From Escherichia coli (GTDB lineage: Bacteria > Pseudomonadota > Gammaproteobacteria > Enterobacterales > Enterobacteriaceae): 64,000 bases of DNA. A program made the position numbers and the translations under genes. Positions 54,479 to 58,400 of this stretch are shown in pieces. Location: assembly GCF_003018255.1 (NCBI RefSeq), contig NZ_CP027440.1. One strand, given 5' to 3'. Below the pieces are notes generated by a model, which was not told the origin of the DNA, made no database searches, and saw only the letters and a list, made by a program, of their open reading frames with translations. How positions within the stretch are numbered: the first letter of the stretch is position 1; each line of letters opens with the position of its first letter.

Positions 54479-54572
54479 TTTCGCTTTAAAACATATCATG
54501 AAACTGGGTATGTTTTGTCTGCCTGCTCTGGGATCGCCGGGGCGGGCATTTTTTTGCATGAGACATAACGAA

Positions 54573-55357
<785 letters not shown>

Positions 55358-55384
55358 AAATATATCCTTCGGCTTTGCGTGGAT

Positions 55385-55425
55385 GATAATTATACAGTAC
55401 ATGTAACGCTAATGTCATTACAGCA
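55385..55425 (-). promoter_or_regulatory. Putative promoter/operator of the toxin-antitoxin operon
   Basis: Minus strand: ATGACA - 18 nt - TATAAT, with palindromes TAATGACATTA (over the -35) and TACATGTA (in the spacer). Confidence 0.4.
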
Positions 55426-55440
55426 AAGATGCTACCCCTG

Positions 55441-55470
55441 AAATAAAAAAGCCCTGGCAGTTACCAGGGC
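55441..55470 (-). terminator. Intrinsic terminator of rne
   Basis: Minus strand reads GCCCTGGTAACTGCCAGGGC followed by TTTTTT, 20 nt after the rne stop. Confidence 0.55.
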
Positions 55471-55490
55471 TTGATTACTTGAGCTAATTA

Positions 55491-58400
55491 TTACTCAACA
55501 GGTTGCGGACGCGCAGGAGCGGCAGAGGCATGATGCGTTGCCGTATGACCACCTGCGGCACCTTTGCCTTCGAAGGCAAAAGTAGGGCGCTGCCAGTCAC
55601 TGTGACGCGGTGCCTCCGGAACATATTCCGGTGCCGGAGCGCGCGTCATTGGCGCGGTAGCGTGGTTATGCTCAACGGTGATCTCTGGTTCAACCGCGGC
55701 TACCGTTTCAACTTCTGCTGCGACTTCAGCGACGACTGGCGCGGCAGGTTGAGCAACAACTTCAGGTTCAGCAACCACAACCTCAGCAGTTTCGGCAACT
55801 TCTTCAATATCAGCCGTCTCTTCCTGCGGTTCAACCACCGGTTCTGCGTGTTCTGCAACTTCCTGGGCTACGGCAACATCAGACTCGGTAATCACCTGCG
55901 GCTGTTCAGTTACCGCGGCGGCAATTACTTCAGGATGCGTCGTTTCAGCCACTTCCGGTTGCGGTTCGGCAACCTGAACGGGGGCTTCTACAACTTCAGC
56001 CACTTCTTCAACAACTGGCGCGCTAACAACCGGTTCGACAGCGGCGGCGACAGGGACCTCAGTCACCATCGGCTGCACTTGTACTTCTTCCTGTTCGCGC
56101 TGCTCTTCGACCTGTACATCTTGCGGACGTACAATTGGATAGCGGATCCAGACTTTGCCAGAGGCCAGTTCCGGAGACGCGCACGCTACGGTCAACGGCA
56201 TTGGCGATTGGGTTGGATAACGCTCGTCACGATAGCGACGACGACGCTGACCACTCACGCGCAGGTGACGAGGCGAGCGGCGAGAACGACGCGGCATGCC
56301 ACCGTTGTCACGGTTATCAGCATTGTTCTCTTCTTGCTGTTCTGGTGCAGTTTGCGCTACGACTGGCAGCGGGACTTTCACCAGTTCTGTGCGTGGAGCT
56401 GGTGCTTCCTGAACAATTGGTTCGGCAGCGACAGTTTCTTCAACCACCGGTGCGACTACCGCTTCTTCGGCTACGCTTTGCTCGTAACGCACTTTCTGAT
56501 TGAGCTGACGCTGTTTACGACGCGGCTGAACCGGACGTACACGTTCTTCCTGTTCGGTTTCCTGAACAGATTGCTCTTCAACATTCAGCGCCTTCGCTTC
56601 TTGTTGCGCCTGACGTTTATCATCGTTACGGCGGCGGCTACGTTCACGACGCGGCGCTTGCTGCTCGTCGGTGGTACGTGCTTTTTCCGTTACCTCAGCC
56701 TGCTGACGGCTCTCACGCGTCTCGGCAGTCTGCTGCTGTGCCTGGCGACGATTACGACGGTTTTCTTCGCGATTATCGCTGCCTTCAGTACGTTCACTAC
56801 GGGTGTCGCGGCGCTCATTACGGTCACGGCGGTTGTTCTGACGAGGCTTGCGACGATCCTGTTGACGTTCCGGTTTCGCTTCTGCTTTCGGTGCTGGTTG
56901 CTCGGCCGGTTTGGTTTCTTCACCACCGCTGAACAGCGCTTTCAGTGCGCCGAAGAAGCGGCTCAACAACCCTGGTTGTGCAGGAGATGCTGGTGTTGCC
57001 GTTGCAGCTTTAGGTGCTGGGGCTACAACAGGCGCGGCAGGTTCAGCTGGGGTTGGAGCTGGCGGCACATCCGGCATGGCAAAGGTTGCCAGCGCAGGTT
57101 GTTCAGGACGCTTACGTTCAGCGAACTCTTCTTCAGACGGCAGCGCCATCGCTTCTTCATGCAGCTTCGGCAGCATGTAGCTTAAGGTTGGAGTTTCTTC
57201 CCCTTTACGCACGCGCAGCACATGGTAGTGCGGGGTTTCCATCTGATCGTTTGGCACAATCACACAGCGCACGCCGTCCTGACGAGTTTCAATCGCATTC
57301 ACTGCAGAACGTTTTTCATTCAGCAGGTAAGACGCGATTGGCACAGGAACAATGGCGTGAACTTCCTGAGTGTTCTCTTTCAGCGCTTCTTCTTCGATCA
57401 GACGCAGAATAGAGAGCGACAACGATTCGTTGTCACGCACGGTACCGGTACCGGAGCAGCGCGGGCAGACGTGATGGCTGGATTCACCCAATGATGGGCT
57501 CAGACGCTGACGGGACATTTCCAGCAGGCCAAAGCGAGAAATATGGCTGATTTGAATACGCGCCCGGTCCTGACGCACCGCTTCACGCAGACGGTTTTCT
57601 ACCGCACGCTGGTGGCGTACTGGCGTCATGTCGATGAAGTCGATAACAATCAGGCCGCCGAGGTCACGCAGGCGCAGCTGACGAGCAATCTCATCGGCAG
57701 CTTCGAGGTTGGTGTTAAACGCGGTTTCTTCGATATCGCCGCCGCGGGTCGCGCGTGCGGAGTTGATGTCGATGGCGGTTAACGCTTCGGTGCTGTCGAT
57801 AACAATGGAACCACCAGATGGCAGACGAACTTCACGCTGGAAGGCGGACTCAATCTGTGACTCAATCTGGTAGTGGCTGAACAGCGGGATCTCGCCGGTG
57901 TACAGTTTGATTTTGCTGCTGAAATCCGGGCGACCTAATGCAGCGATATGCTGGCGTGCCAGTTCGAGCACTTTCGGGTTATCGATAAGGATTTCGCCGA
58001 TATCCTGACGTAAGTAATCGCGGAATGCGCGAACGATGACGTTGCTCTCCTGATGAATCAGGAACGGAGCTGGGCGGCTTTCAGCGGCTTTTTTGATGGC
58101 TTCCCAGTGTTTCAGACGGAAGCTTAAATCCCATTGCAGCGCCTCAGCAGATTTGCCGACGCCAGCGGTGCGCACGATAAGCCCCATGCCTTCCGGCAGT
58201 TCAAGGCTTGCCAGTGCTTCTTTTAATTCGGTACGGTCGTCGCCTTCGATACGACGAGAAATGCCACCCGCGCGCGGGTTGTTCGGCATCAGAACCAGAT
58301 AGCTACCCGCCAGACTGATAAAGGTAGTTAATGCCGCGCCTTTGTTGCCGCGCTCTTCTTTATCGATCTGAACAATGACTTCCTGACCTTCACGCAACAC

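What the first reader, a model, noticed from the sequence alone, without database searches (positions are those of the whole stretch)
55385..55425. Palindromic operators overlapping the promoter of the TA operon
Immediately upstream of the antitoxin start the minus strand carries a sigma70-like promoter (ATGACA - 18 nt - TATAAT). Two short perfect palindromes, TAATGACATTA over the -35 and TACATGTA in the spacer, are arranged as expected for autorepression by an RHH antitoxin or antitoxin-toxin complex. This region lies directly after the rne terminator, so read-through from rne could also feed the operon.
Basis: seen in the sequence. Interest (0 to 1): 0.5.

Follow-up and report, generated by a model that had tools for sequence, protein, structure and literature searches.

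The report
TacAT2-like toxin-antitoxin promoter and operator

Summary
This pair is an E. coli relative of Salmonella TacA2/TacT2. It is present in 685 of 5426 complete E. coli genomes and replaces 64 nt of the K-12 rne-flgL spacer.

Neither palindrome is rarer than chance (about 0.1 and 0.34 in shuffles of the spacer). Comparison of 62 related promoters, from Enterobacterales to Acidobacteria, shows one conserved element instead. It is GTAATGACAT-NNN-CGTTAC (55421..55403), a perfect palindrome GTAATGACATTGTCATTAC in distant taxa. It sits 7-8 nt upstream of the -10 box and contains the -35 box.

TAATGACATTA is simply the left arm and centre of this element. TACATGTA is perfect in 1 of 58 distinct orthologous promoters. 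Its exact allele occurs in only 81 of 686 E. coli carriers, against 404 with TACATGCG.

The best model is two RHH dimers of an A4T2 complex binding the two arms and occluding the -35 box, by analogy with KacAT-DNA. Binding itself is untested. Read-through from rne cannot be assessed; the terminator looks strong. The element is ordinary: a new member of a known kind.

The parts
55449..55472 (-). Intrinsic terminator hairpin of rne. The U-tract continues to 55441. The same sequence is present in K-12.
54558..55438 (-). Accessory cassette: promoter, antitoxin, toxin and a 15-nt tail. It replaces 64 unrelated nt of the K-12 rne-flgL spacer and is present in 685 of 5426 complete E. coli genomes. 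Boundaries are approximate to a few nt.
55403..55421 (-). Proposed antitoxin operator, the 19-bp imperfect inverted repeat GTAATGACAT TAG CGTTAC. Positions 1-10, 14 and 17-19 carry 1.4-2.0 bits and position 16 about 0.95 bits across 58 distinct orthologous promoters.
55413..55418 (-). -35 hexamer ATGACA, embedded in the left arm of the operator.
55389..55394 (-). -10 hexamer TATAAT, 8 nt downstream of the operator. A -10-like hexamer sits at the same distance (7-8 nt) in the orthologues.
55410..55420 (-). It is a sub-feature of the operator's left arm and centre, not an independent unit.
55398..55405 (-). It is fortuitous and allele-specific; only the TAC at 55405..55403 belongs to the operator.
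55365..55370 (-). Shine-Dalgarno sequence GAAGGA, 7 nt upstream of the antitoxin ATG.
55064..55357 (-). Antitoxin CDS of 97 aa. It matches Pfam TacA1/DUF1778 (PF08681) and has an RHH N-terminus ([10 protein letters not shown]). It is closest to PDB 7AK7 chain C, which is Salmonella TacA2.
54573..55067 (-). GNAT toxin CDS of 164 aa, with Y137, K29 and F17 present. Its start overlaps the antitoxin stop (ATGA). It is closest to PDB 7AK7 chain A, which is TacT2 Y137F.
54520..54548 (+). Terminator hairpin of the convergent flgL gene. It is backbone sequence shared with K-12 and bounds the cassette.

Best explanation
The region is the autoregulated promoter of an accessory TacAT2-type toxin-antitoxin cassette (DUF1778/RHH antitoxin plus GNAT tRNA-acetylating toxin) inserted between the rne and flgL terminators.

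Transcription starts from a sigma70 promoter, ATGACA-18-TATAAT. A single 19-bp inverted repeat, GTAATGACAT-TAG-CGTTAC (55421..55403), covers the -35 hexamer and the upstream half of the spacer. I propose it is the operator.

The proposed mechanism is that two ribbon-helix-helix dimers of the antitoxin bind the two arms. They would be held together by toxin in a T-A2-A2-T hexamer and insert their beta-strands (S13-N15-R17) into the major groove at the outer GTAA and TTAC. This would block RNA polymerase access to the -35 box. Excess toxin would be expected to loosen the complex (conditional cooperativity).

What is shown: the sequence elements, their conservation and position, and the protein family. 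What is inferred: binding, stoichiometry on DNA, repression and toxin-ratio dependence.
For: - Promoter: it matches 11 of 12 consensus positions.
- Proteins: the antitoxin matches Pfam TacA1/DUF1778 and the toxin is a GNAT. The closest structure is 7AK7, with E-values of 1e-45 and 8e-76. 7AK7 is identified as TacA2/TacT2 Y137F from residues Y137, K29 and F17 and by elimination against 6G96 (TacT3) and 5FVJ (TacT).
- Motif at the expected place: in 62 related loci from many phyla, the 19-mer lies at the same place upstream of the antitoxin and 7-8 nt before a -10-like box.
- Information content: positions 1-10, 14 and 17-19 carry 1.4-2.0 bits and position 16 about 0.95 bits, against roughly 0-0.5 bits upstream of the element and up to about 0.9 bits downstream.
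- Symmetry: the motif is a perfect palindrome, GTAATGACATTGTCATTAC, in L062, and 8 of 9 arm pairs match in several other distant loci.
- Specificity: 55 of 62 promoter sites score at least 12 of 15, against 16 such hits in 610,538 other positions.
- Reading head: the RHH beta-strand (R/K)RETLN(L/I)RIKP is nearly invariant across the same loci.
- Within E. coli: variation spares the high-information positions.
- Mobility: the promoter belongs to the cassette, not to the backbone.
- Stoichiometry: 7AK7 holds 4 antitoxin and 2 toxin chains.
- Analogy with KacAT-DNA: the A4T2 hexamer binds a 21-bp odd-centred palindrome, TGTACGGTTA-T-TAACCGTACA. KacA R12 and D10 contact G5 and C8 of GTAC. The two GTAC cores are 15 bp apart, the same spacing as GTAA(1-4) and TTAC(16-19) here. 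KacA R8, D10 and R12 align with S13, N15 and R17 here.
Against: - No binding, footprint, transcription-start or expression data exist for this locus in anything I could read.
- In the window alone the repeat matches at only 6 of 9 arm positions, about 1% per position by chance, so it is not significant without the comparison.
- The left arm is better conserved than the inner right arm in Enterobacterales. Part of that conservation may therefore reflect -35 function rather than repressor contacts.
- Many loci are close relatives (Pectobacterium), which inflates the counts.
- For Salmonella TacAT1, two binding sites were inferred in the -81..-6 region (PMC5449658). A second, weaker site here is not excluded.
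- The two Grabe et al. papers (2021, 2024), which may cover TacA operators, are not held.
Confidence: 0.8

Rival explanations
1. One reading: two separate short palindromic operators, TAATGACATTA over the -35 box and TACATGTA in the spacer, each bound by an RHH dimer.
For: Both palindromes exist and lie about 13.5 bp apart centre to centre. In shuffles of the spacer, both occur together with P = 0.035.
Against: TACATGTA is a perfect palindrome in only 1 of 58 distinct orthologous promoters, and positions 20-25 carry about 0-0.7 bits. Within E. coli, the exact 41-nt allele is in 81 of 686 carriers, while TACATGCG is in 404 and TACATGTG in others. TAATGACATTA is perfect in 17 of 58 and is broken by an A->G allele. 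This model ignores the conserved G1 and CGTTAC.
Confidence: 0.04
2. The conserved 19-mer is purely a promoter element (-35 box plus spacer or upstream contacts for RNA polymerase or an activator), and the antitoxin binds elsewhere or not at all.
For: The -35 hexamer lies inside the best-conserved left arm. The right inner arm is variable in Enterobacterales.
Against: Sigma70 promoters do not require GTAA upstream of the -35 box or a symmetric (C)NTTAC in the spacer. The element is a full palindrome in distant taxa. The partner protein has an invariant RHH reading head. Homologous complexes bind such palindromes.
Confidence: 0.08
3. The operon is fed mainly by read-through from rne, so this promoter/operator is of minor importance.
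For: The strand is the same, and the operator starts only 19 nt after the terminator's U-tract.
Against: The terminator is strong. The promoter travels with the cassette and is conserved in genomes where the cassette is not next to rne. A near-consensus promoter is present.
Confidence: 0.05

Closest known systems
Salmonella enterica TacA2-TacT2 (PDB 7AK7; Rycroft et al. 2018, PMC5959882)
   Same: The antitoxin aligns over all 97 residues (E = 1e-45) and the toxin over 162 residues (E = 8e-76). The toxin has Y137, K29 and F17. The gene order is the same. The Salmonella diarizonae orthologue (L018) carries the same operator core, GTAATGACATCTGCGTTAC, at the same distance from its -10 box.
   Different: This cassette is in E. 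coli, at a different chromosomal site (the rne-flgL spacer). About 15-25% of residues differ. The three central operator bases differ (TAG against CTG). I could not find a published operator for tacAT2 in the library.
Klebsiella KacA-KacT / E. coli O157 AtaR-AtaT operator complexes (PDB 5ZGN; PMC6698736)
   Same: These are also GNAT toxins with DUF1778 RHH antitoxins. The A4T2 hexamer binds one roughly 20-bp odd-centred palindrome in its own promoter. The outer tetranucleotides are 15 bp apart. The key Arg (KacA R12, R17 here) is conserved.
   Different: The antitoxins are distant (E = 1e-7). The operator sequence differs (TGTACGGTTA-T-TAACCGTACA). The KacA site spans the transcription start, whereas this one covers the -35 box. 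KacA D10 and R8 are replaced by N15 and S13.
Salmonella TacAT1 and TacAT3 autoregulation (VanDrisse 2017, PMC5449658; Grabe 2024 as summarised in PMC11951105)
   Same: These are the same family. The TA complex binds its own promoter. Excess toxin drives a hexamer-to-octamer transition and derepression.
   Different: These are paralogues with different reading heads (LNLRAK and LSLRVS). Two sites were inferred for TacAT1, whereas I find only one conserved site here. The primary papers by Grabe et al. could not be read.

Membership tests
GNAT/DUF1778 (TacAT-type) type II toxin-antitoxin | The antitoxin has a DUF1778/TacA domain with an N-terminal ribbon-helix-helix. | tested here: met
   Pfam PF08681 TacA1, E = 1.5e-26, residues 14-88, with a weak RHH_1 match. 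It aligns to the TacA, KacA and AtaR structures.
GNAT/DUF1778 (TacAT-type) type II toxin-antitoxin | The toxin has a GNAT fold with the catalytic tyrosine. | tested here: met
   Pfam Acetyltransf_7, _10 and _1. Y137 aligns with the Y137F position of 7AK7_A.
GNAT/DUF1778 (TacAT-type) type II toxin-antitoxin | Bicistronic operon with the antitoxin first and overlapping stop/start codons. | tested here: met
   Antitoxin at 55357..55064 and toxin at 55067..54573, with an ATGA overlap.
GNAT/DUF1778 (TacAT-type) type II toxin-antitoxin | The toxin acetylates aminoacyl-tRNA and is neutralised by the antitoxin. | not testable with these tools
   Shown only for the Salmonella homologue TacT2 (PMC5959882).
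TacAT2 orthologue group | Closest characterised relative is TacA2/TacT2 rather than TacAT1, TacAT3, KacAT, AtaRT or ItaRT. | tested here: met
   7AK7 scores far above all other PDB relatives. E. coli HS, the source of ItaRT, and O157:H7, the source of AtaRT, lack this cassette at the rne-flgL site, so those systems lie elsewhere. NCBIfam gave no hit.
TacAT2 orthologue group | Same genomic context as in Salmonella. | not tested
   The flanks of L018 differ upstream, but the genes there were not identified.
Autorepressed TA promoter with an RHH operator | Inverted repeat overlapping the core promoter elements of the TA operon. | tested here: met
   The 19-bp repeat at 55421..55403 contains the -35 box and ends 8 nt before the -10 box.
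Autorepressed TA promoter with an RHH operator | The site is conserved with the cognate antitoxin across divergent hosts while the flanks are not. | tested here: met
Autorepressed TA promoter with an RHH operator | The antitoxin or TA complex binds the site and represses transcription; the toxin:antitoxin ratio modulates this. | not testable with these tools
   Inferred from the KacAT, AtaRT and TacAT literature.
Sigma70 promoter | -35 and -10 hexamers with a 16-18 nt spacer. | tested here: met
   ATGACA-18-TATAAT, 11 of 12 matches.
Sigma70 promoter | Mapped transcription start site. | not testable with these tools
   No transcript data were available.

The most novel reading that the evidence does not exclude
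The operator and RHH reading-head pair (GTAATGACAT..GTCATTAC with RETLNLRIKP) is kept almost unchanged from Acidobacteria to E. coli. It is shared by co-resident paralogous cassettes, for example the two copies in Pectobacterium aroidearum (L015 and L016). TacAT2-clade modules that are insulated at the toxin-antitoxin interface could therefore still cross-repress one another's promoters. A subclade (L009, L042) appears to have escaped by changing both the operator (GTAATGAGATAAGCTTTAC) and residue 12 (E->V/A). In E. coli, the placement 19 nt behind the rne terminator could additionally couple TA transcription to rne read-through.
Probability: 0.2. Interest if true: 0.45.

Novelty: new member of a known kind. 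Interest (0 to 1): 0.2.

Why it matters
The main value is in getting the annotation and the experiment design right. Anyone testing autoregulation of this E. coli TacAT2-like module should target the 19-bp repeat, specifically its GTAA and TTAC arms, and not TACATGTA, which most E. coli carriers lack. The family-wide consensus gives a ready operator model for a widespread clade of GNAT/RHH toxin-antitoxin systems. It also raises a testable question about transcriptional cross-talk between paralogues. It does not change how such systems are understood.

Tried and rejected
- NCBIfam scan of both proteins returned nothing. RefSeq's "TacA family" name therefore does not come from an HMM I could reproduce.
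- The primary papers most likely to describe TacA operators (Grabe 2021 and 2024) are not held, by DOI or by PMC id. Full-text searches for the operator sequence and for tacAT2 with promoter found nothing relevant.
- I considered whether the cassette is ItaRT (E. coli HS) or AtaRT/AtaT2 (O157:H7). This was rejected because those strains have an empty rne-flgL spacer.
- I looked for a second operator copy. The window has no other good match; the best others have 3 mismatches, which is at chance level. No second conserved block lies between the -10 box and the start codon outside the Enterobacterales.
- I looked for symmetric compensatory changes between the arms. They are seen in L034 (GTAGTG...CACTAC) but not systematically, so I did not use them as evidence.
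- Rfam at permissive thresholds gave only sub-threshold chance hits.
- The 112-aa ORF starting at 55402 inside the promoter is rejected as an artefact. Homologues, the RefSeq annotation and the Shine-Dalgarno sequence all support the ATG at 55357.
- ARAGORN found no intact tRNA immediately upstream of the cassette in 13 related loci.

Full report
**What is there**

Read on the minus strand, the region runs as follows:

- The rne CDS ends with its stop at 55491.
- An intrinsic terminator follows, with the hairpin at 55472..55449 and a U-tract to 55441.
- The sequence GGGGTAGCATCTTTGCT comes next.
- Then GTAATGACATTAGCGTTAC (55421..55403), ATGTACTG, and TATAAT (55394..55389).
- The Shine-Dalgarno sequence GAAGGA lies at 55370..55365.
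- The ATG at 55357 opens a 97-aa ORF that ends at 55064.
- A 164-aa ORF (55067..54573) overlaps it by ATGA.
- The terminator of the convergent flgL gene follows.

The consensus scan gives ATGACA-18-TATAAT, 11 of 12 matches, as the best promoter-like site in 1.3 kb. TAATGACATTA lies at 55420..55410, with 5-nt arms and a central A. TACATGTA lies at 55405..55398.

**Are the palindromes more than chance?**

No. The 64-kb window holds 228 perfect 8-bp palindromes (one per 281 bp) and 90 palindromes of the 5+1+5 type (one per 711 bp). In 20,000 shuffles of the 88-nt spacer, at least one 8-bp palindrome appears in 34%, a 5+1+5 palindrome in 10%, and both in 3.5%.

**What the genes are**

- The antitoxin matches Pfam TacA1/DUF1778 (PF08681, E = 1.5e-26) and, weakly, RHH_1.
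- The toxin is a GNAT.
- The nearest solved structure for both is 7AK7, with E = 1.4e-45 over all 97 residues and E = 7.7e-76 over 162 residues.

I identify 7AK7 as Salmonella TacA2/TacT2 on the following grounds:

- 6G96 is TacT3 Y143F, and its sequence is the one found in 7AK9 and 7ZG5.
- 5FVJ is TacT and pairs with 7AK8.
- TacT2 is described with catalytic Y137, K29 (E29 in Typhimurium) and F17.
- The window's toxin has Y137, K29 and F17, and 7AK7_A carries F at the position aligned with Y137.

The cassette is therefore an E. coli TacAT2-type module with the "active" K29 form of the toxin. That the 7AK7-7AK9 series comes from Grabe et al. 2021 is from my own memory; I could not read that paper.

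**Where it sits**

The window is E. coli.

- The full cassette is in 685 of 5426 complete genomes, always on the chromosome between rne and flgL. K-12, O157:H7, ST131 and HS lack it.
- Alignment with K-12 shows that the backbone is identical up to the terminator tail (…TTTTTTATTTCA) and again from GCAAAAAAATGCCCGCC onward.
- In between, K-12 has 64 unrelated nt and the window has about 880 nt.
- The promoter therefore belongs to the mobile cassette, not to the rne 3' region.

**The comparative test**

A scan of one genome per species with the antitoxin returned 66 loci. They come from Enterobacterales, Xanthomonas, Marinobacter, Betaproteobacteria, Alphaproteobacteria, Desulfobulbaceae and Acidobacteria.

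Their upstream regions cannot be aligned except for one block, GTAATGACAT-N3/4-(C)GTTAC or -CATTAC. A -10-like hexamer follows 7-8 nt later.

- In the window, the block is GTAATGACATTAGCGTTAC.
- In distant taxa it becomes a full palindrome: L062 has GTAATGACATTGTCATTAC with 9 of 9 arm pairs. L046, L052 and L058 have 8 of 9.

Over 58 distinct sequences:

| Positions | Information content |
|---|---|
| 1-10, 14 and 17-19 | 1.4-2.0 bits |
| 16 | about 0.95 bits |
| 11-13 and 15 | 0.5-0.7 bits |
| Upstream of the element | about 0-0.5 bits |
| Downstream of the element | up to about 0.9 bits |

Fifty-five of 62 promoter sites score at least 12 of 15 against the core. Only 16 such hits occur in 610,538 other positions of the same loci, and one of those is the neighbouring paralogue's promoter.

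The antitoxin's beta-strand, (R/K)RETLN(L/I)RIKP, is nearly invariant in the same loci. In the window alone, the repeat pairs at only 6 of 9 positions. That is roughly a 1% event per position, so a reader without comparative data could not have recognised it.

TAATGACATTA covers positions 2-12 of the 19-mer. It is a perfect palindrome in 17 of 58 orthologous promoters, because positions 11-12 are variable.

TACATGTA covers positions 17-24. It is a perfect palindrome in 1 of 58, the window itself, and no other 8-bp palindrome takes its place in the others.

Within E. coli, the 116-nt promoter region falls into identity bands of 142 genomes at 99% or more, 141 at 95-99%, and 403 at 90-95%. Six sampled alleles differ as follows:

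- a G indel and a C/T change upstream of the operator;
- operator position 12, where A->G breaks TAATGACATTA and improves the dyad symmetry of the 19-mer;
- the two bases that turn TACATGTA into TACATGTG or TACATGCG;
- a few positions in the 5' UTR and the CDS.

All high-information operator positions, and both promoter hexamers, are invariant. Searching with exact 41-mers finds the window's allele in 81 genomes and the TACATGCG allele in 404. Most carriers therefore lack the second palindrome.

**Mechanism**

This part is inferred.

- 7AK7 contains four antitoxin chains and two toxin chains. This is the same A4T2 composition as KacAT and AtaRT.
- The KacAT hexamer (T-A2-A2-T) binds a single odd-centred pseudo-palindrome with its two RHH dimers. 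KacA R12 contacts G5 and D10 contacts C8 of GTAC, and R8 and R12 are essential for binding.
- The crystallised KacA operator is AAATGTACGGTTATTAACCGTACATGA. Its two GTAC cores are 15 bp apart, centre to centre.
- Here, GTAA (positions 1-4) and TTAC (positions 16-19) are also 15 bp apart.
- KacA R8, D10 and R12 align with S13, N15 and R17 of this antitoxin.

I therefore propose that two RHH dimers of one hexamer occupy the two arms and cover the -35 hexamer and the upstream half of the spacer. This would exclude RNA polymerase.

Conditional cooperativity is extrapolated from two sources: KacAT and the summary of Grabe 2024, in which excess toxin drives a hexamer-to-octamer transition, DNA distortion and derepression.

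The stronger conservation of the left arm is expected, because it also has to serve as the -35 box.

**Read-through from rne**

The strand orientation allows it. However, the terminator has a 10-bp stem with 6 G-C pairs, a 4-nt loop and a U-tract. The 66-nt stretch that contains it folds at -25.1 kcal/mol, z = -3.9. It is identical in strains without the cassette. The cassette keeps its own promoter wherever it is found. No transcript data were available, so I cannot tell.

**Comparison and novelty**

This is a new member of a known kind: a TacAT2-type module with an RHH operator over its promoter.

I found no description of this operator sequence in the searchable library. The two most relevant papers are not held, so prior description cannot be excluded. 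From memory, Grabe 2024 dissects tacAT3, a distant paralogue whose antitoxin matches this one only at E = 1e-5.

The element is ordinary, and I score interest low. The useful outcome is the corrected operator definition.

Noticed in passing
L074 (E. coli HS-02, NZ_CP172818.1), locus 901-1675: This is a decayed copy of the cassette. The promoter and operator are retained up to just past the -10 box. The antitoxin and the N-terminal part of the toxin are then replaced by an A-rich stretch, and RefSeq marks the GNAT remnant as a pseudogene. It shows that the module can be lost by deletion of antitoxin and toxin together.
   Followed up: partly
L004-L016, L018-L023, L030, L032, L038, L042; about 20-80 nt upstream of the operator: Many Enterobacterales copies have a shared sequence just upstream, such as CGGTTCGTTCCTTTGGTTCGATTCCC. 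It resembles the T-arm/3' part of tRNA-Phe. ARAGORN finds no intact tRNA there, but an intact tRNA-Phe lies 1-2 kb downstream in L022 and L031. This suggests the cassette rides at the edge of tRNA-Phe-associated islands in those genomes, unlike in E. coli.
   Followed up: partly
L009 (Pectobacterium carotovorum) and L042 (Affinibrenneria salicis), operator region: This subclade has a diverged operator (GTAATGAGATAAGCTTTAC and GTAATGGGATAATCTTTAT). It also has E12->V/A just before the RHH beta-strand (KRVTLNLRIKP and KRATLNLRIKP). L009 sits 4 kb from a canonical copy (L010) on the same contig. This is a possible case of operator and reading-head co-divergence that insulates paralogues, but with only two examples.
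   Followed up: no
window 55425-55441 against K-12 L001 722-735: The octamer CATCTTTG occurs at the left junction both in the cassette-bearing allele (…TAGCATCTTTGCTG…) and in the K-12 'empty' spacer (…TTTCATCTTTGAATC…). It may be microhomology at the replacement junction or coincidence.
   Followed up: no
window 55357-55402, minus strand: The mechanical ORF list extends the antitoxin frame to an ATG at 55402 inside the promoter, giving 112 aa (MYCIIIIHAKPKDIF…). This is an artefact. RefSeq, the homologues and the Shine-Dalgarno sequence all support the ATG at 55357.
   Followed up: yes
window 54573-55067: The E. coli toxin carries K29, the residue that distinguishes the more toxic S. Enteritidis TacT2 from the weakly toxic S. 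Typhimurium E29 form (PMC5959882). It also has the catalytic Y137, so it is predicted to be an active toxin.
   Followed up: partly
window 55398-55403, minus strand: The allele-specific ATGTAC right after the operator resembles one half-site (TGTAC) of the KacA/AtaR operator. There is only one copy, and it is absent from most E. coli alleles, so it is probably coincidence.
   Followed up: no
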